Positions 1 to 63,346 of a stretch of 64,000 nt of DNA are shown here, piece by piece; position 1 is the stretch's first letter, and each line of letters begins with the position of its first letter. The translations under genes were made by a program, and so were the position numbers. The notes beneath the pieces were generated by a model, which saw only the letters and a list, made by a program, of their open reading frames with translations, did not search any database and was not told where the DNA came from. Source of the DNA: Escherichia phage EcS1; the sequence record NC_055721.1; one strand, given 5' to 3'.

Positions 1-1608
1 GAACTGATTGCTAACGTTAATAATATTAACGAAGCTCTTGAAATGGGATCAGATACTGAGATCATTAAACAAGTAGGCATTAACAAAGACAATATCGAAA
101 TTCTTCAAGAGCATATGCAATTTGCAGAAAATGATATTGGTAATCTTATTACTGGACTAACTCAAGTAGCTGATGATGTTGGTCCTTATGACCAAGATGT
201 TGACCCGTATTACCGTACAGTGCGTGATAACCTTGTATGGGTTAAAAAAGAAATGGGTCAATACCCAGGACAAGATTTTAATGGTCAATCTGTAGTTGGA
301 AATGTCTCGACAGGTATGAAACGTCGTATCATTGAAAACAGTTCAGAAATAGCTAGTCAAGGTTCTCGTATTACCGAGTTAGAAGACAATTACGAAAACT
401 CAGATATCGGTGCATTAACAATTGAAGTAAACAAACTTCGTAAAGAAGTAGGTCCTTCAACTGCGGCTAAAGCTGATACTTTGTATAAACGTACTGATAC
501 ATTAGAAACAAAATCAGCTTCAATGGATCGTAATATCGATGAGATCGAAATAGCAATTGGTTTTGGTGGAACTCCTATTGATACTCGTGTTACTACAAAC
601 ACTAATAGCATCTCTACACTTACTACTCAAATCACTGCACCTATTACAGGTCTTTCGCCACGTGTTGTTGTAATTGAAAATGCTATTGGAACAACCACAC
701 AACCTGCTACTATTAACGGTAAAATCTTTGTTTTACGTCGTGATTTAGATGCACTATCTCTTGTAGTCGGAAGCGATACTTCATCTGGTCTTCGCGGTGA
801 TGTTGCATGGCTGAACCAGCGCGTAGGTATTGTCCCACAAGGACAACAACCTGGTCCTACTACAGCATTTGGTCAGATTGCTACTTTATCTTCATTGGCT
901 AACTCTAATGCTTCAGCTATTCAGGATATCCAAGCTGAAATTGGTAACAACACAACTGGTCTTAAAGGACAAGTAATTAGCCTGACAAGTATCATTAATG
1001 GTACTAACCCTAATGGTGTTACTGTCGAAGAACGTGGTCTTTTAAGAACTGTTAAGGCTCATGATGTAACAATTAAGACATTAATTCCAGAAGCCCCAAT
1101 TAATGGTAAATCTTATGTGCGTAAAGATGCCGCTTGGAGTGAGTCTAATGCAATTGATACGAGTACTTTAGTTGCTGAAGCTCCTAACGACGGTAAAGAA
1201 TACGTCCGTAAGAGTAAAGCCTGGGAAGAACTTGTTTTAACATCTTATTTGACTGATGCTGCTTCTGATAGCAAATTATATGGAAGACAAGATGGAGCTT
1301 GGACTGAAGTTGTTATTCCAAGTGTAACCGGATTTATCACAGATGCTCCTAAAGAAGTTAAAAACTTCGTACGTAATAATGGCGCTTGGGTTGCTATTAC
1401 TATTCCTACTGTGCCGGATGTTTCAGATTTTATTACTGATGCACCTAACGATACCAAATTATATGGTCGTAAGGCTGAAGCATGGGAAGAAGTTGTTATT
1501 CCTGCAGCTCCAGATATCACTAATTTGATTCCTGAAGCGCCTAAAGATGGTAAGGCTTATGTTCGTAAAGATGGGGCTTGGGTAGATATTACCACATTGA
1601 CTCCATAA
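1..1608 (+). CDS. wac: Fibritin (neck whisker), 5-prime partial; reading frame open from position 1
   Basis: Frame continuous from base 1 to stop at 1606-1608; C-terminus ends in foldon-like motif PEAPKDGKAYVRKDGAWVDI resembling T4 foldon [21 protein letters not shown]; lies immediately upstream of gene 13 as in T4. Confidence 0.8.
   Translation, partial: ELIANVNNINEALEMGSDTEIIKQVGINKDNIEILQEHMQFAENDIGNLITGLTQVADDVGPYDQDVDPYYRTVRDNLVWVKKEMGQYPGQDFNGQSVVGNVSTGMKRRIIENSSEIASQGSRITELEDNYENSDIGALTIEVNKLRKEVGPSTAAKADTLYKRTDTLETKSASMDRNIDEIEIAIGFGGTPIDTRVTTNTNSISTLTTQITAPITGLSPRVVVIENAIGTTTQPATINGKIFVLRRDLDALSLVVGSDTSSGLRGDVAWLNQRVGIVPQGQQPGPTTAFGQIATLSSLANSNASAIQDIQAEIGNNTTGLKGQVISLTSIINGTNPNGVTVEERGLLRTVKAHDVTIKTLIPEAPINGKSYVRKDAAWSESNAIDTSTLVAEAPNDGKEYVRKSKAWEELVLTSYLTDAASDSKLYGRQDGAWTEVVIPSVTGFITDAPKEVKNFVRNNGAWVAITIPTVPDVSDFITDAPNDTKLYGRKAEAWEEVVIPAAPDITNLIPEAPKDGKAYVRKDGAWVDITTLTP
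1080..1605 (+). repeat. Six tandem foldon-like peptide repeats (about 30 aa period) at fibritin C-terminus
   Basis: Repeats LIPEAPINGKSYVRKDAAWSE / VAEAPNDGKEYVRKSKAWEE / TDAASDSKLYGRQDGAWTEV / ITDAPKEVKNFVRNNGAWVA / ITDAPNDTKLYGRKAEAWEEV / LIPEAPKDGKAYVRKDGAWVD. Confidence 0.85.
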
Positions 1609-1615
1609 AAATTAT

Positions 1616-1640
1616 GGGAGACTTCGGTCTCCCTTTCTTG
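1616..1640 (+). terminator. Rho-independent terminator after wac (GGGAGAC-TTCG-GTCTCCC + T-run)
   Basis: 7-bp GC stem, tetraloop, TTTCTT. Confidence 0.7.
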
Positions 1641-1672
1641 CATAAATACAGTTATTAATACAAGGACATCCT

Positions 1673-2614
1673 ATGGCCGGCTATAACGCATATAACCCAA
1701 AAGAGCTCAAGGACGTAATCCTACGTCGCCTGGGAGCTCCAATAGTAAACGTTGAAGTAACAACAGAACAAGTATATGATTGCATCCAGCGCTCCCTGGA
1801 GCTATTTGGCGAGTATCATTTCGATGGCCTTAATAAAGGCTATCAAGTATTCACAATAGGTGAAGATGACGAAGAACTTTATCGTACAGGTGTATTTGAC
1901 CTTTCAGGTAAAAACATTTATGCAATAACCCAAATTGTTCGTACTAATGTAGGCTCAATTACCTCAATGGATGGTAATGCTACTTATCCATGGTTCACTG
2001 ACTTTATGCTAGGCATGGCTGGTATTAATGGTGGTATGGGTTCAAGCTGTAATAAGTTTTATGGACCTAATGCCTTCGGTGCAGACCTTGGTTATTTCAC
2101 CCAATTGATGCAATACCGCACAATGATGCAAGACATGCTTTCGCCATTACCTGATTATTGGTATAATGATGCTACAGGCCAATTAAAGATTATGGGTAAC
2201 TTCAAAAAGAATGATATCATCATTTGTGAAGTATTCGTTAAATCTTATATAGATGTAGAGAAAGCCGTAGGGAATACTGCTGGCTATGGCTTTGCAAGTA
2301 ATTGTGCTTCTGTAAATCCTTATACCGCTAGCCAAATCTACGATAACCCAGACCGTGCGTTGTCCGGTATGCGTGCAGGTGAGGACCCTGTAATTAAGCA
2401 AGGTTCTTATAATAATCGTTGGGTCAAAGATTATGCGACCACATTAGTTAAAGAACTCAATGGACAAATTCTAGCCAAGCATCAAGGTATGCAATTACCT
2501 GGTGGAATTACAGTTGATGGCACTCGTCTAATTGAAGAAGCTCGTATTGAGAAAGAAGCATTACGACAAGAGCTTGATTTACTTGATCCACCATTTGGTA
2601 TTCTGTTAGGATAA
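1673..2614 (+). CDS. 13: Neck protein gp13
   Basis: 313 aa; N-terminus [21 protein letters not shown] matches recalled T4 gp13; synteny wac-13-14. Confidence 0.85.
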
Positions 2615-2616
2615 TT

Positions 2617-3393
2617 ATGACTACTTACGATTCATCGCTTTTTGCTAAATTAGAGAATCATACTGGGTACGGTAAAACAAATGAAGAAGAGATATTAAAC
2701 CCATTTGTTAATTTCCATAAGTATGAAAACACTCAGAATTTAGCCGATGTATTAGTAGCCGAAAGTATTCAGATGCGTGGGATAGAACTATACTATGTCC
2801 CACGTGAATTTGTTAAACCAGATATGATATTTGGTGAAGACATTCAATCTAAATTTACAAAGGCCTGGAAATTTGCGGCCTATTTAGATTCATTTGATGG
2901 TTATTCAGGCGATAATACATTCTTTAGTAAATTCGGTATGTCAGTTAATGATGAAGTAAACTTTAGTATTAACCCTAGACTCTTCAAACATCAATGTAAT
3001 GGAACAGAACCTATTGCAGGTGATTTGATTTATTTCCCAATGGATAACAGCTTATTTGAAATTAACTGGGTTGAACCTTATGACCCATTCTATCAAGTAG
3101 GGCAAAATGCTATCCGCAAAGTAACAGCTCAGAAATTCGTTTATTCTGGTGAAGAACTTAAGCCTGAACTTCAACGTAATGAAGGTATCAACATTGCTGA
3201 ATTCAGTGAACTTGATTTACGTCCTATCCATAATATTGATGGATTAGCTGATATCAATGACGACCAATATGCTGAATCAAATCAGTTTAATGAAGAAGCT
3301 TCTAAGTATGTAGAACCATACACTGTTATTAATGGTAAAGGTCTTCAAGAACCGCCTAAAGCAGATTCATTTGATGATTCTTTCTTTGATTAA
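2617..3393 (+). CDS. 14: Neck protein gp14
   Basis: 258 aa, size and position match T4 gp14. Confidence 0.8.
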
Positions 3394-3411
3394 TAAATAA
3401 GCATATATCAT

Positions 3412-3437: not shown

Positions 3438-4267
3438 ATGTTCGGACACTGGTATAATTCATCACTGCGTCGCTATATTGTTTTAATGGGTGATTTGTTT
3501 TCCCATGTCCAGGTAGCACGTGTCAGAGCGGATGTAGGCACTAAGTTTATTAAAGTTCCTATTACTTATGCTTCAAAAGAAAAATTTATGTCTCAACTTG
3601 GCAAATGGACTGCTATTCAAAGCGCTCAAGATAAAGCCAAGATTGAAACAGTTCTTCCACGTATGAATCTTCATTTAGTGGACTTGCAATATAACGCACA
3701 ATATAAAACAGCTACCCAAAACAGAACTGCGGCTCAATATCAAGACGGTGACCCAAGAAAATCTGTTTCACAATTCAGTCCTACTCCAGTCAAAATGATT
3801 TTTGAGTTAGGCATTTATACTCGTCACCAAGACGATATGTATCAAATCATAGAACAAATTTTGCCTTATTTCCAACCTCATTTTAATACAACAATAACAG
3901 AACTTTATACAAATGAGATTAAATTCGAGCGTGACATCAGGATTGTATTCCAATCAGCTGCAATGGACGAACAAATAGAAGGTGACCCGATGACAAGACG
4001 TCGTTTGGAATGGTCTATTATGTTCGAAGTGAATGGTTGGCTTTATCCACCAGTTGCATCAATTGAAGGCGAAATCAGAACAGTATATATTGACTTCTTT
4101 GCCAATACTAAAGAGCTTACGCCTGAAGGCATATTCGAATCAGTTGATAGTGAAGTAGTTCCTAGATATGTAGAAGAAGCCGATTGGGACGGAAAATCAG
4201 AACAAACTTATTCGCATGATATTCCTATTCCTGTTGAGCCTGCGCCACCTAGCCCGAGGACTAATAA

Positions 4268-4271
<4 letters not shown>
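3438..4271 (+). CDS. 15: Tail sheath stabilizer / tail completion protein gp15
   Basis: 277 aa, synteny between 14 and 16; AGGAG-type RBS upstream. Confidence 0.8.
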
Positions 4272-59569: not shown

Positions 59570-62500
59570 ATGGCCGATATTTTAAAACCTGCTTTCCGTG
59601 CCACATCCGGCCTTGATGCAGGTGGCGATAAAGTTATCAACGTTGCGAAAGCTGATTTCGACGTTTTAAGTGATGGTGTTAACGTTGATTTCTTCATTGA
59701 AGAAAACACCATCCAAGAATATATTGAAACACGTGCATACCGTCAAAACTTTGCTGTTATGTTTGATGGACGTATCTGGACTGCTAAAGCTGATATTGCT
59801 TCACCTTCAGGGCCATTCCAAGAAGCACGTTGGACTGCATTACGTACTGACCCAAAATGGAAATATGTTACTTCAGGGGCGAACAATGCTCTTAATTCAG
59901 GCGATACCATTTCTGTTACTACTGAATTAGGCGATGTTGGATTCATTTTACCAAATGATCCACAAGATGGCGACACCATTGTAATTAAAGATGTCGGTGC
60001 GAAGGTTGGTTACAATTCACTTAAAGTAAAAGTATCAAACCAACAGATCGTTAATTTAGGTAACAAAGTAAATGAACTTCTGATTACCAAACCACGTTCA
60101 GAAAACGTGTTTATTTTTAGTAATCGTTTATGGTATTTTTATGCTGCTGAAGAAAGTATTCATGCAACTCAAATCACTGTAGCAAATAACGAATATCGTG
60201 CATCGGCTAGTGAACGTATCTTCCGTACTCACTCAGCGCCAGGTGCAATCATTGTTGTTCTGCCTAAATACGCAAACAATGGTGATATCATTTATTTCAC
60301 TGACCTTGATGGGTTAGCTCCGTTACAACATTTAATTGTTAAGACATTTGATAACACTTCAAGTATTGGTAAAGCTGGACAATATCAGATTGAATCACGT
60401 ACTTCGGCCGATGGCTTAGTTATCTACGATGCATCTACTAAAGTATGGAAGATTTGGGACGGCGATATCAGACAACGTCTTCGTATTATTCGTGATGACG
60501 TAAATCTGTTAGCCAATGAAAGTGTCATGGTTTTTGGTGTTAATAACTCAGTTCAAAAAACAATTAACATTAAATTACCTGCTGGCGTTGCGATCGGTGA
60601 TAAAGAACGTATCGCAATGAACTATATGCGTAAAGGTCAGAAAGTAATTATTACCGCTGCAACTGGCGATAAAATTGCTACTTCTAAAACTTTGCTTCAG
60701 TTCCCTAAACGTTCTCAGTATCCACCTGATGTTGAATGGGTTAAAGTCGATTCATTAGAATTTGATGGTACCATTGATTATGTTCCTATTATGGAATTAT
60801 CTTATGTGGAAGATGGTGCTGAAAAGTATTGGGTTGTTTCTACTAATGATCCGACAGTAGAACGTGTTGATGCAACTAGTGATGCTAATAGACAACGTTT
60901 AGGTGTTATTGCTCTGGCAAGCCAGGCGCAAGCTAATGCGAACCATGAACAGACTCCTGAAAAAGAATTAGCTATTACTCCAGAGACTTTAGCTAACAGA
61001 ACAGCTACTGAAACTCGTCGTGGTATAGCACGTGTAGCAACAACAGCTGAAGTTAATAAATTAACGACTGACACTTATGCTGATGATACTATTATTACAC
61101 CTAGAAAGTTAAATGAACGTTCAGCTACTGAAACTCGTCGTGGACTTGCTGAAATTGCAACTCAGCCTGAAACTAATGCCGGAACAGATGATACAGTCAT
61201 TATAACGCCGAAAAAACTAGAAGCACGTCGTGCAACTGAAACTATGGCTGGTATTGCGCCTTTAGTTGTTTCAGGTGGTATTCCAGGTATTGACCGTGAT
61301 ACTGTAGGAACTGGCATTTACGAACGTACTGAACATACTCGTCAAGTAACGCCTAAGACCTTGTTTGAAAATAAGGCTACTCAGACGGCGCAAGGTGGTG
61401 TTTGGATGGCAACTGGCAATGAAACTATTGCTGGGGTAGTTGATACTCCTGCGATGCCTCTAGCTGTGTCTCCTGAACAACTACATAAAAAGACTGCTAC
61501 TGAAACTCGTATTGGTTTTACCGAAATTGCTACACAACCGGAAACTGATGCTGGGACTGATGACTTCAGATTCATTACGCCTAAGAAATTAAATAACCGT
61601 AATGCTACCGAAACTTTGACAGGTATATCGCGTGTCGCGACACAAGTGGAATTTGATGCTGGTACTTTAGATAATGTTATTTCAACTCCGTTGAAAATTA
61701 AAACTAGATTTAATGATACCGCTCGTACTTCTGTTATCCCAGCCAGTGGTTTAACTGAATCAGGAACTCTCTGGAACCATTATACACTGGATATTCGAGA
61801 AGCATCTGAAACACAACGTGGTACAGCTCGTTTAGCGACTCAACTTGAAGTAAATACTGGTACAGATGATAAAACAATTGTTACTCCTTTAAAACTTCAT
61901 AGCAAAAAAGCTACTGAATCTTCTGAAGGTATTATCCAAGTAGCAACTCAGGCTGAAACAGTTACAGGCACATCTCCAACTAAAGCAATATCGCCTAAGA
62001 ACTTCAAATATGTTGTTCAACAAGAAACGACTTGGGAAGCAAGTCCAACCACTCGTGGTTTTGTTAAGATTTCTGAAAATGCTATTACTTGGGTAGGTAA
62101 TAATACAGCTGGGTCTACTAAACCATTAGACCAATATGTGAAATCTGGGTATGCTATTTCTCCATATGAGTTGAATAAAACTCTGGCTAATTATTTGCCA
62201 TTAATGGCTCAAGCTGAAGATTCACGTAATTTAGATGGACTTGATTCACTTCAATTCATCCGTCGTGATATCGACCAAACTGTGAATGGCAAATTAACTC
62301 TGACCAAAGAGTTAGTGACTTCTGCTGCTATTACTTCAACTGCCGCTGCAACATTTGATTCAGTATTAAGTATCAAAACAGTGACAATTGGTAATAATAC
62401 AGGTAATGCTATTTTCAATATGGCTGGGACCACGAACCCATGGGCTATTTCTGCATTATCATCTAAAGATACTATTGAATTCAAGTCTGGTACTTCAGCT

Positions 62501-63346
62501 AATGCTTTAGTATTGAATAAGAATGGTGATACAACAATTGCTGGACAAATTACTGCACCGAATATCAATATAACTTCAGCATATAAAATGAATGGTGTTA
62601 ACATCATTGCTGCTGAAACAATTGGTTCAACTCCAGTAGTTGCAATTGGTTCGACTACCCAAAAGATGGCTGTTAAAAGTGTTGATGCTGCTAATATCGA
62701 TGTATACGATAAAGACTCACCATCTGCGCCGTATAAGATATTAACATCTAAAAATGCTGTGGATATTGTAGGTCAAAACTTCGTTAAGAAGATTGGCGAT
62801 ACAATGTCTGGACGTTTAACTATTAATGCCGCGATGTCTGTTATCATGGACCAAGACAAAGCTATGGGTGCATTGACTGCCGAAACAATAGGTACTTGGT
62901 CAACCGAAATAACTAAACAAGCATTGTATAACACTTTGCCTGGTTATGTCGTTCCAGTATTTGTTAAAGATGACCAAGGACAAAGCACTCCTATTGTAGA
63001 AAGTTATACCGAAGTTAAGTCAATCGGTACAATGTCTCAATTTGGTGTATCGTCAGCTTACACGTATCGTATTTGGACTCCTCGTCCTCAAACGGTTCAA
63101 GCTAACCATAGTCCAGTTTCAATGTATACTCAGATTTGGGATTCAGCTCGTAACGTATGGGGTCAATGGTCTCGTATGTTCACCTCTGAAGCGCCTCCAA
63201 CGGCTGCTGACATTGGTGCTGTTTCTACTGCTGGTTCTGCATTCGATAACCTGACAATACATAAGTGGCTTCAGATTGGCAATGTTCGTATTGAGCCAGA
63301 TGATGTTACTCGTACAGTTAAATTCACTTGGATTGATACTCCATAA
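59570..63346 (+). CDS. 34: Long tail fibre proximal subunit gp34
   Basis: 1258 aa; GLDAGGDK, SNRLW, MNYMRKGQ, YWVV, PTVERVD, RLGVIALA.QAQAN, ELAITPETLANRTATETRRGIAR, SPYELN..LANYLPL, LDGLDS.QFIRRDI.QTVNG.LTLT match recalled T4 gp34; TATAAATA upstream. Confidence 0.95.
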   Translation: MADILKPAFRATSGLDAGGDKVINVAKADFDVLSDGVNVDFFIEENTIQEYIETRAYRQNFAVMFDGRIWTAKADIASPSGPFQEARWTALRTDPKWKYVTSGANNALNSGDTISVTTELGDVGFILPNDPQDGDTIVIKDVGAKVGYNSLKVKVSNQQIVNLGNKVNELLITKPRSENVFIFSNRLWYFYAAEESIHATQITVANNEYRASASERIFRTHSAPGAIIVVLPKYANNGDIIYFTDLDGLAPLQHLIVKTFDNTSSIGKAGQYQIESRTSADGLVIYDASTKVWKIWDGDIRQRLRIIRDDVNLLANESVMVFGVNNSVQKTINIKLPAGVAIGDKERIAMNYMRKGQKVIITAATGDKIATSKTLLQFPKRSQYPPDVEWVKVDSLEFDGTIDYVPIMELSYVEDGAEKYWVVSTNDPTVERVDATSDANRQRLGVIALASQAQANANHEQTPEKELAITPETLANRTATETRRGIARVATTAEVNKLTTDTYADDTIITPRKLNERSATETRRGLAEIATQPETNAGTDDTVIITPKKLEARRATETMAGIAPLVVSGGIPGIDRDTVGTGIYERTEHTRQVTPKTLFENKATQTAQGGVWMATGNETIAGVVDTPAMPLAVSPEQLHKKTATETRIGFTEIATQPETDAGTDDFRFITPKKLNNRNATETLTGISRVATQVEFDAGTLDNVISTPLKIKTRFNDTARTSVIPASGLTESGTLWNHYTLDIREASETQRGTARLATQLEVNTGTDDKTIVTPLKLHSKKATESSEGIIQVATQAETVTGTSPTKAISPKNFKYVVQQETTWEASPTTRGFVKISENAITWVGNNTAGSTKPLDQYVKSGYAISPYELNKTLANYLPLMAQAEDSRNLDGLDSLQFIRRDIDQTVNGKLTLTKELVTSAAITSTAAATFDSVLSIKTVTIGNNTGNAIFNMAGTTNPWAISALSSKDTIEFKSGTSANALVLNKNGDTTIAGQITAPNINITSAYKMNGVNIIAAETIGSTPVVAIGSTTQKMAVKSVDAANIDVYDKDSPSAPYKILTSKNAVDIVGQNFVKKIGDTMSGRLTINAAMSVIMDQDKAMGALTAETIGTWSTEITKQALYNTLPGYVVPVFVKDDQGQSTPIVESYTEVKSIGTMSQFGVSSAYTYRIWTPRPQTVQANHSPVSMYTQIWDSARNVWGQWSRMFTSEAPPTAADIGAVSTAGSAFDNLTIHKWLQIGNVRIEPDDVTRTVKFTWIDTP
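60950..62000 (+). repeat. Imperfect peptide repeats in gp34 (TP..L..R.ATE...G.A..ATQ.E.NAGTDD)
   Basis: At least six copies read in the translation. Confidence 0.7.

What the first reader, a model, noticed from the sequence alone, without database searches (positions are those of the whole stretch)
1080..1608. Fibritin C-terminus carries six tandem foldon-like units rather than one
T4 fibritin ends in a single roughly 27-aa foldon. Here the last 175 residues are six about 30-aa repeats, each with the foldon core (AP.DGK.Y.RK.GAW.E), the last being closest to canonical. This could form an extended beta-structured fibre tip or multiple trimerisation nodes, and might give fibritin a receptor-binding role.
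Basis: seen in the sequence. Interest (0 to 1): 0.55.

Follow-up and report, generated by a model that had tools for sequence, protein, structure and literature searches.

The report
Fibritin ending in six foldon repeats
The neck-whisker protein (fibritin) of Escherichia phage EcS1 ends in six diverged copies of the small 'foldon' trimerisation unit instead of one, and this is a local case of a very common, unnamed repeat of phage fibre proteins that has no solved tandem structure.

Summary
Window 1-1608 (+) is the 3' part of gene wac (fibritin, 607 aa) of Escherichia phage EcS1, lying between gp12 and gp13. Its last 175 residues (nt 1081-1605) are six contiguous units of 26-32 aa. Each matches the T4 foldon (z 5.7-19 against shuffles). 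Each also matches a profile built only from non-fibritin units (15-39 bits; the T4 foldon itself scores 38). The DNA copies are only 60-79% alike, so this is not an assembly artefact.

It is not unique. Eight Winklervirus records (seven named phages) carry five such units, JS98-type fibritins carry two, and 5,173 protein clusters, the ones inspected being phage tail-fibre proteins, carry up to 16 tandem units. Pfam labels them only Fibritin_C. The PDB holds no natural tandem array, only T4-foldon fusions and a single unit in JBD30 gp54.

AlphaFold2 on linked triple copies predicts a foldon-type beta-hairpin in every unit. Internal units 2-5 alone reach a pLDDT of about 74. Trimeric packing could not be inspected.

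My best reading is a trimeric "poly-foldon" rod that extends the whisker tip, with the canonical last unit as the folding nucleus. A receptor-binding role has no support. I rate it a new variant of a known kind, of moderate interest.

The parts
1..1608 (+). 3' 1,608 nt of gene wac (fibritin neck whisker). It encodes residues 73-607 of the 607-aa protein and includes the stop codon at 1606-1608.
   Evidence: The frame is open from nt 1. PHROG 1056 'fibritin neck whisker' E 2.5e-155. Pfam Fibritin_C 8e-40. The full gene is in L002 1586-3409, between gp12 and gp13. The exact protein is YP_010090875.1 of phage EcS1.
1006..1080 (+). End of the segmented coiled coil: the NPNG loop plus the last helical segment (VTVEERGLLRTVKAHDVTIKT, protein residues 408-432).
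   Evidence: AlphaFold2 gives a helix at construct residues 7-26, directly before unit 1. This stretch aligns with the Winklervirus, JS98-type and PEi20 fibritins.
1081..1167 (+). Unit 1: LIPEAPINGKSYVRKDAAWSESNAIDTST (protein residues 433-461).
   Evidence: z 14.8 against the T4 foldon, 12 of 18 identical. 33.4 bits with the independent profile. Predicted hairpin E37-40/E43-46. It sits where the first foldon-like motif of CHI14, PEi20 and the JS98-type fibritins sits, at residues 433-438.
1168..1245 (+). Unit 2: LVAEAPNDGKEYVRKSKAWEELVLTS (residues 462-487).
   Evidence: z 12.0. 34.8 bits. Hairpin predicted in both models, with block pLDDT 66-83 in the units 2-5 construct.
1246..1332 (+). Unit 3: YLTDAASDSKLYGRQDGAWTEVVIPSVTG (residues 488-516). 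It has A-A in place of A-P and D-S in place of D-G.
   Evidence: z 6.7. 39.5 bits. Hairpin E38-41/E44-47 with block pLDDT 86-88.
1333..1428 (+). Unit 4: FITDAPKEVKNFVRNNGAWVAITIPTVPDVSD (residues 517-548). It is the most divergent unit (E-V for D-G, F for Y). Together with the tail of unit 3 it makes up the one-unit excess over the Winklervirus fibritins.
   Evidence: z 9.6. Only 15.4 bits. The 29-aa insertion relative to CHI14 is IPSVTGFITDAPKEVKNFVRNNGAWVAIT. Hairpin E66-70/E73-77 with block pLDDT 77-81.
1429..1524 (+). Unit 5: FITDAPNDTKLYGRKAEAWEEVVIPAAPDITN (residues 549-580).
   Evidence: z 5.7 against T4, but z 18.9 against unit 3. 37.4 bits. 75-83% identical to the CHI14 counterpart region. 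Block pLDDT 65 and 72 over the hairpin in the two models.
1525..1605 (+). Unit 6, the canonical terminal foldon: LIPEAPKDGKAYVRKDGAWVDITTLTP (residues 581-607).
   Evidence: 16 of 22 identical to the T4 foldon, z 19.0. Pfam Fibritin_C 25.7 bits, above the 21-bit cut-off. It matches the PDB foldon chains 1rfo and 4ncv. Block pLDDT 78-85, hairpin followed by a short helix.
1616..1640 (+). Terminator-like hairpin GGGAGAC-TTCG-GTCTCCC followed by TTTCTTG, directly after wac.
   Evidence: 7 pairs, 5 of them G-C, 4-nt loop. The scan found 2 sites, this palindrome read on both strands, against 0.3 expected in shuffles. It is a consensus match only and its function was not tested.

Best explanation
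The last 175 residues of phage EcS1 fibritin are six homologous, diverged foldon-type units laid head to tail. They follow directly on the segmented coiled coil.

Shown:
- The units are homologous to the T4 foldon and to a very large family of tandem units in phage fibre proteins.
- The sequence positions that define that family are kept in every unit.
- Every unit is predicted to be an extended segment followed by a two-stranded beta-hairpin, in some units followed by a short helix. That is the foldon topology.

Inferred:
- In the fibritin trimer each level of three hairpins packs around the three-fold axis like a foldon, so the six levels form a beaded 'poly-foldon' rod that lengthens the distal end of the whisker.
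- The last unit is the most canonical and, with unit 5, the best conserved part of the array. It probably acts as the registration and folding nucleus, as the single foldon does in T4. The inner units would then zip up behind it and add stability and reach.
- In T4 the distal end of fibritin is the part that mediates long-tail-fibre attachment and environment-dependent control of infectivity. The array is therefore most likely a spacer and docking surface for the long tail fibres, not a host adhesin.
- Unit number changes by gain or loss of exactly one unit (six here, five in Winklervirus), as unequal recombination between repeats would give.
For: - Gene identity and context.
- Six units, all significant against the T4 foldon and against each other. 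With a profile built only from non-fibritin units they score 15-39 bits, against 38 for the T4 foldon.
- Family logo from 877 units in 160 proteins: [IVL]-x-[DE]-A-P-x-D-G-x-x-Y-x-R-x-[ND]-G-x-W-x-x-[VIL]. A, P, D, Y, R and W carry 3.8-4.3 bits each, and the window units keep them. From my own knowledge of the foldon structure (Tao 1997; Guthe 2004; Habazettl 2009, not re-read here), E5-R15 is the inter-subunit salt bridge, and W20, Y13 and P7 form the trimer core.
- AlphaFold2 on three linked copies: a hairpin on Y-x-R/x-W in all 18 unit copies of the six-unit construct, and confident for units 5-6.
- Internal units 2-5 alone, without coiled coil or terminal foldon, reach about 74 pLDDT over the units and 72-88 over the blocks holding the hairpins. 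Three of five models agree. The same units scored 26-43 in the larger construct, so confidence depends on context and not only on the local hairpin.
- A natural non-fibritin unit (JBD30 gp54, DAPSDGKAYARESGAW) is solved within a trimer. It is described as extending, bending back in an antiparallel sheet and ending in a short helix.
- Conservation gradient against CHI14: units 1-3 are 40-50% identical and units 5-6 are 75-83% identical.
- The extra segment is exactly one unit long (29 aa).
- T4 and JS98 fibritins fold into trimers using only their foldon motifs, and the C-terminal domain mediates long-tail-fibre attachment: PMC3797505.
Against: - Trimeric packing of the internal units was not observed. 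The tool returns no coordinates or PAE. The construct was an artificial single chain with Gly-Ser linkers. pTM was low (0.24 and 0.37).
- In the six-unit construct, units 1-4 had pLDDT below 50.
- No monomer control could be run, so part of the pLDDT may reflect the hairpin alone.
- Unit 4 is a weak family member (15.4 bits), and unit 3 lacks the Pro.
- No experiment links the array to long-tail-fibre binding. gp34 has the same length in EcS1 (1,258 aa) and CHI14 (about 1,256 aa) despite the different unit number.
Confidence: 0.6

Rival explanations
1. Only the terminal unit is a true trimerising foldon. The five inner units are independent hairpin beads on three separate, flexible strands, giving a frayed tether between coiled coil and foldon rather than a rod.
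For: Only unit 6 passes Pfam's cut-off. In the six-unit construct only units 5-6 are confident. The linkers between units are Pro-rich and score lower, about 59-66 pLDDT. Trimer packing was not seen directly.
Against: All units keep the family's invariant positions, which in T4 are interface residues. Units 1-3 and 5 score as well as the T4 foldon on an independent profile. Units 2-5 alone reach hairpin pLDDT of 72-88 in the triple-copy construct. Arrays with no canonical terminal foldon are common in trimeric fibre proteins. The JBD30 unit is part of a solved trimer.
Confidence: 0.2
2. The array folds into a different, intertwined trimeric beta-structure, such as a triple beta-helix or beta-spiral-like shaft, in which the hairpins of neighbouring units interdigitate instead of forming discrete foldon levels.
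Against: The secondary-structure pattern is exactly foldon-like in every unit: 4-5-residue strands, a 2-residue turn at [ND]-G, and an occasional short helix. Sequence conservation is that of the foldon core. The single JBD30 unit has foldon topology.
Confidence: 0.1
3. The repeats give fibritin a host receptor-binding (adhesin) role.
For: The same units occur in tail-fibre proteins. Some distant fibritins, such as the Aeh1 type, have been suggested to take part in host recognition (PMC3797505).
Against: In P0001, P0004, P0014 and P0017 a separate domain follows the array: a depolymerase beta-sandwich, Phage_tail_C tips and a YadA stalk. The EcS1 protein ends in a plain foldon with nothing after it. 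The most conserved part is the canonical end, not a variable tip. No known binding domain is detected.
Confidence: 0.08
4. The repeat number is an assembly or recent-duplication artefact.
For: Repeats can be mis-assembled. The IMG/VR and NCBI records are the same genome, so they do not give independent confirmation.
Against: The DNA copies are only 60-79% identical and Tandem Repeats Finder sees no array, so reads could not be collapsed or expanded. Eight independently deposited Winklervirus records (seven named phages) have a colinear five-unit array. The frame is intact.
Confidence: 0.01

Closest known systems
T4 fibritin (gpwac) with its single C-terminal foldon (PDB 1aa0, 1avy, 1rfo; Pfam PF07921 Fibritin_C)
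   Same: Same gene position (gp12 | wac | gp13), homologous N-terminal and segmented coiled-coil parts, and a terminal unit 16 of 22 identical to the T4 foldon.
   Different: There are six contiguous units (175 aa) instead of one (about 27 aa). Five of the units fall below Pfam's own cut-off when scored alone.
JS98-type fibritins (two foldon-like motifs; Latypov et al. 2007, as summarised in Letarov & Krisch 2013, PMC3797505). Examples read here: PEi20, L003, L004.
   Same: There is more than one foldon-like motif. The first motif sits at the same place, residues about 433-438 at the end of the main coiled coil, and the last motif is canonical.
   Different: In the JS98 type the two motifs are separated by a coiled-coil spacer of about 70 aa. 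Here the space is filled by four further units and no helix is predicted between units.
Winklervirus fibritins (Serratia phages CHI14, CBH8, X20 and LC53; Erwinia phages Virsaitis27, Vettismorki and Gravdalen; Kosakonia phage Kc304). All are annotated only as 'fibritin neck whisker'.
   Same: They have a colinear array of contiguous units ending in the same canonical foldon. The whole protein is colinear with about 65-70% identity.
   Different: They have five units (584 aa) against six here. EcS1 has one extra 29-aa unit-length segment, and units 1-3 are only 40-50% identical. I found no paper that describes the five-unit array.
Tandem foldon-like arrays in phage tail-fibre and structural proteins. 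The family is unnamed. Relevant models are PHROGs 26654, 15437, 3904, 14458 and 24134. Examples are the tail-fibre proteins of Pseudomonas phage Noxifer, Ralstonia jumbo phages and rV5-like coliphages.
   Same: Same unit, same invariant positions and tandem arrangement. There are 5,173 protein clusters at E<=1e-3, and the top 150 carry 3-16 units each. The window units score 15-39 bits on a profile built from these alone.
   Different: Their usual period is 23-28 aa, against 26-32 aa here. In several, other domains follow the array. None of the other 149 top representatives has a fibritin N-terminal part.
[quoted passage not shown]
   Same: It contains one unit, SDAPSDGKAYARESGAWTEL. This is the only natural non-T4 unit found in the PDB. 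It is described as extended, then an antiparallel hairpin, then a short helix, within a trimer.
   Different: It is a single unit in a siphophage baseplate protein, not an array and not a fibritin. The authors do not call it a foldon.

Membership tests
T4-type fibritin (gpwac) | Gene lies between the short tail fibre gene 12 and neck gene 13 | tested here: met
   L002 has gp12 (32-1576), wac (1586-3409), gp13 and gp14. The order is the same in CHI14, PEi20 and others.
T4-type fibritin (gpwac) | Homologous N-terminal domain and segmented coiled coil | tested here: met
   PHROG 1056 E 2.5e-155 over residues 1-386 of the window protein. Pfam Fibritin_C 8e-40. The first 40 residues are 95% identical to CHI14.
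T4-type fibritin (gpwac) | Protein ends in a canonical foldon | tested here: met
   Unit 6 is 16 of 22 identical to the T4 foldon, scores 25.7 bits against a cut-off of 21, and matches PDB foldon chains.
T4-type fibritin (gpwac) | A single foldon follows the coiled coil (T4 architecture) | tested here: not met
   Six units lie between the last helix and the C-terminus.
T4-type fibritin (gpwac) | Forms trimeric whiskers on the neck and assists long-tail-fibre assembly and retraction | not testable with these tools
   This needs virion EM and genetics. It is inferred only from homology and from PMC3797505.
Foldon fold (three beta-hairpins around a three-fold axis), applied to the five inner units | Sequence signature [DE]-A-P-x-D-G-x-x-Y-x-R-x-x-G-x-W | tested here: met
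   A, R and W are invariant and P and Y nearly invariant across 13 units. The deviations are unit 3 (A-A, D-S) and unit 4 (E-V, F).
Foldon fold (three beta-hairpins around a three-fold axis), applied to the five inner units | Extended N-terminal segment followed by a beta-hairpin with the turn at D/N-G | tested here: met
   DSSP on the AlphaFold2 models gives EEEE--EEEE in every unit of every copy. This is a prediction, not an experiment.
Foldon fold (three beta-hairpins around a three-fold axis), applied to the five inner units | Three chains pack around the axis at each unit | tested here: inconclusive
   The triple-copy construct of units 2-5 has a pLDDT of about 74 over the units, against 26-43 for the same units in the larger construct. 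No coordinates or PAE were returned. pTM was 0.37. There were no structural neighbours.
Foldon fold (three beta-hairpins around a three-fold axis), applied to the five inner units | Autonomous, fast trimerisation in solution | not testable with these tools
   This needs expression of fragments and SEC-MALS, ultracentrifugation or NMR.
JS98-type fibritin | First foldon-like motif at the end of the main coiled coil and a canonical one at the C-terminus | tested here: met
   The first motif lies at residues 433-455 here, 433-454 in PEi20 and 435-461 in L003/L004.
JS98-type fibritin | Coiled-coil spacer between the two motifs | tested here: not met
   Four further units lie in between, and no helix of four or more residues is predicted there except 4-residue turns.
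   The Pfam scan at E<=1 lists Fibritin_C as the only family matching the repeats. No unit hits any other Pfam family when scanned alone.
Tandem foldon-like arrays of phage fibre proteins (unnamed family) | Units recognised by a profile built without fibritins, arranged head to tail with a period of about 21-34 aa | tested here: met
   There are six hits of 15.4-39.5 bits with the A4 profile, with periods of 26-32 aa. The family periods are given.

The most novel reading that the evidence does not exclude
The tandem foldon-like array is a distinct trimeric fibre architecture of its own: a 'poly-foldon' rod of stacked three-hairpin levels. It is used by thousands of phage fibre proteins but has never been named or solved. 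The EcS1 and Winklervirus whiskers would be its simplest natural examples, a coiled coil capped by five or six levels. Unit number, changed one unit at a time, would tune the reach or the tail-fibre docking of the whisker tip.
Probability: 0.45. Interest if true: 0.55.

Novelty: new variant of a known kind. Interest (0 to 1): 0.4.

Why it matters
The T4 foldon is one of the most used protein-engineering parts. Here, 566 distinct PDB sequences carry it as a fusion tag. Yet nature's own multi-foldon proteins are undescribed.

This fibritin shows that foldon units can be concatenated directly, five or six in a row, at the end of a coiled coil. The census shows that the same unit builds long arrays in thousands of phage fibre proteins, which databases label only 'Fibritin_C'.

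If the array is a rigid stack, it is a new modular shaft element for fibre design, with length set by unit number. It would also be a cue for annotating phage fibres.

For T4-like phage biology, it adds a third and fourth state (5 and 6 units) to the known 1- and 2-foldon fibritin types, at the end of the whisker that handles the long tail fibres.

Tried and rejected
- The word-indexed protein search with the 175-aa region found only 11 proteins and missed even CHI14. I replaced it with the exhaustive profile search.
- Tandem Repeats Finder found nothing, because the DNA is too diverged.
- NCBIfam gave no relevant hit.
- Pfam gave nothing for the repeats except Fibritin_C; the Phage_fiber_2 idea is rejected.
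- Two profile searches of the PDB found no natural tandem array.
- The six-unit triple-copy prediction gave low confidence for units 1-4, possibly because 50-residue linkers are too short for a long parallel rod. A shorter construct did better.
- A test for co-variation of fibritin unit number with gp34 length showed none: 1,258 against about 1,256 aa.
- A scan of all six reading frames of the window with the unit profile found no further units outside wac.
- Literature searches for tandem or multiple foldons in phage fibres, for Fibritin_C/PF07921, for Winklervirus fibritin and for EcS1 returned nothing beyond the JS98 two-motif description. The library lacks most subscription papers, so absence there is weak evidence.
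Full report
**What is there**

The window opens inside a long reading frame on the + strand that stops at 1606-1608. The product matches PHROG 1056 'fibritin neck whisker' (E 2.5e-155) and Pfam Fibritin_C (E 8e-40, five matched stretches).

The genes that follow are gp13 (1673-2614), gp14 (2617-3393) and gp15 (3438-4271), as in T4-like phages. A 100% identical IMG/VR contig of 175,437 bp supplies the missing 5' end. The whole protein is 607 aa and is preceded by gp12.

The exact sequence is YP_010090875.1, 'fibritin neck whisker' of Escherichia phage EcS1, genus Kagamiyamavirus, Tevenvirinae. The nearest genomes in the phage collection are Winklervirus phages at about 80% nucleotide identity.

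**Checking the observation**

The last 175 residues (nt 1081-1605; the stated start of 1080 is one base out of frame) split into six contiguous units. They begin at nt 1081, 1168, 1246, 1333, 1429 and 1525.

- Against the T4 foldon, each unit scores far above 2,000 shuffles of itself (z 14.8, 12.0, 6.7, 9.6, 5.7 and 19.0). All unit pairs are significant (z 5.9-18.9).
- Scanned one by one against Pfam, five units hit only the foldon part of Fibritin_C (13.2-25.7 bits) and unit 5 hits nothing. Only unit 6 passes the 21-bit cut-off.
- To avoid circularity I built a profile from 115 units taken only from non-fibritin metagenomic proteins. It scores the six units 33.4, 34.8, 39.5, 15.4, 37.4 and 38.1 bits, and the T4 foldon 38.3 bits.

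Five of the six units are therefore as good members of the family as the T4 foldon itself. Unit 4 is the outlier.

At the DNA level the copies are only 60-79% identical, and Tandem Repeats Finder reports nothing. This rules out an assembly artefact or a recent duplication.

**How unusual it is**

- The literature already describes JS98-type fibritins with two foldon-like motifs separated by a coiled-coil spacer, and reports that T4 and JS98 fibritins fold into trimers using these motifs alone (PMC3797505). I saw this type in PEi20 and in two IMG/VR contigs.
- All eight Winklervirus fibritin records I read (seven named phages) are 584 aa. They carry five contiguous units, colinear with those of EcS1.
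- EcS1 differs by exactly one unit-length insertion of 29 aa, running from the middle of unit 3 to the middle of unit 4.
- The first unit sits at residues 433-438 in all these types, where the main coiled coil ends.

Beyond fibritins, a profile of single units searched against 1.84 billion cluster representatives found 5,173 proteins at E<=1e-3, and 87 at E<=1e-30. The top 150 carry 3-16 units each.

The units there are mostly head to tail, with periods of 23-28 aa. The ten I scanned are phage tail-fibre or virion structural proteins. Some also carry T4 gp9/10 N-terminal, collagen or Phage_tail_C tip domains. Pfam labels all of them only Fibritin_C.

Across 877 units the logo is [IVL]-x-[DE]-A-P-x-D-G-x-x-Y-x-R-x-[ND]-G-x-W-x-x-[VIL].

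**Structural evidence**

Two profile searches of the PDB return 566 distinct sequences carrying the T4 foldon as a tag or as fibritin fragments. They return one other natural protein, gp54 of phage JBD30 (8rk3), with a single unit. The only chains with two units are engineered spikes.

The JBD30 paper describes that region, the 'knee', as extending, bending back in an antiparallel sheet and ending in a short helix, within a trimer (sequence). That is foldon topology, although the authors do not say so. I found no solved natural tandem array.

The prediction tool takes one chain, so I joined three copies with Gly-Ser linkers. The alignments were built from real tandem arrays treated the same way.

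| Construct | Mean pLDDT | pTM | Result |
|---|---|---|---|
| Residues 408-607 x3 (all six units) | 41.6 | 0.24 | A hairpin exactly on Y-x-R/x-W in all 18 unit copies, and a helix for the last coiled-coil segment. Only units 5-6 were confident (block pLDDT 53-85). |
| Units 2-5 x3 (no coiled coil, no terminal foldon) | 64.7 with linkers, about 74 over the units | 0.37 | Blocks holding the hairpins scored 72-88. Three of five models agreed. |

**Most likely mechanism**

I read the array as a stack of foldon-like three-hairpin levels that extends the distal end of the whisker.

The positions conserved in every unit are, from my knowledge of the foldon structure, those of the inter-subunit E5-R15 salt bridge and the W20/Y13/P7 core. 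This is recalled, not re-derived here.

Against CHI14, units 5-6 are 75-83% identical and units 1-3 only 40-50%. This fits a constrained distal end that acts as folding nucleus and perhaps as contact surface. In T4, the fibritin C-terminal domain mediates long-tail-fibre attachment and environment-dependent control of infectivity. A spacer or docking role for the tail fibres is therefore the natural inference.

A simple test for co-variation failed. gp34 (window 59570-63346) is 1,258 aa here and about 1,256 aa in CHI14.

**Rivals**

- A frayed tether in which only unit 6 trimerises is not excluded (0.2).
- A different, intertwined fold is possible (0.1).
- A receptor-binding role has no support (0.08). 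Where a distinct terminal domain was identified in tail-fibre proteins, it follows the array. EcS1 fibritin has nothing after the last foldon.
- An artefact is excluded (0.01).

**Verdict**

The object is a new variant of a known kind: a fibritin whose single foldon is expanded into a contiguous six-unit array. Close relatives with five units sit undescribed in the databases. The repeat family is very large and unnamed, and its tandem form has no solved structure. Interest is moderate (0.4).

Noticed in passing
window 1616-1648: Directly after wac there is a terminator-like hairpin, GGGAGAC-TTCG-GTCTCCC, followed by TTTCTTG (1616-1640). After it comes CATAAATA (1641-1648), which is 7 of 8 matches to the T4 late-promoter motif TATAAATA (motif recalled from memory), about 25 nt upstream of gene 13.
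   Followed up: partly
whole window; L002: The window is from Escherichia phage EcS1 (Kagamiyamavirus, 175,437 bp). That genome seems absent from the INPHARED copy searched, where the best full-length relatives are Winklervirus phages at about 80% identity.
   Followed up: yes
window 1-1400 versus 1401-3400: Megablast homology to Winklervirus genomes starts abruptly at nt 1401, inside unit 4, and runs on through gp13 and gp14 at 82%. The 5' part of wac is too diverged for megablast. I did not test whether this is a recombination boundary or just uneven divergence.
   Followed up: no
L005, L006, L007 (IMG/VR contigs), fibritin ORF 1580-3352: These 591-aa fibritins end in an unrelated C-terminal domain. 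At the end of the coiled coil, however, they keep a degenerate foldon-like stretch, VQDVTDLNAYLRTKDQWI. It is below the profile threshold and sits where unit 1 sits in EcS1.
   Followed up: partly
L016 9125-10273 (Pseudomonas phage JBD30 gp54; PDB 8rk3): The 'knee domain' of this solved receptor-binding protein contains a clear foldon-like unit, SDAPSDGKAYARESGAWTEL, at residues 124-145. It is preceded by a hairpin-like half unit, KTYEYSGTAWVELV. The structure paper does not mention foldon or fibritin.
   Followed up: partly
P0012, P0013, P0017, P0037 (metagenomic proteins): Extreme arrays occur. P0012 has 16 units after a T4 gp9/10-like N-terminus. P0017 has 12 units at a strict 23-24-aa period, followed by a YadA-stalk-like segment. 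P0013 combines collagen repeats with an array. P0037 has an alternating 25/29-aa double unit repeated five times.
   Followed up: partly
window 59570-63346 (+): This 1,258-aa ORF is the long-tail-fibre proximal subunit gp34, 73% identical to that of CHI14. The unit profile finds no foldon-like unit in it or anywhere else in the window outside wac.
   Followed up: yes
whole window: ARAGORN finds no tRNA or tmRNA gene in the 64 kb.
   Followed up: yes
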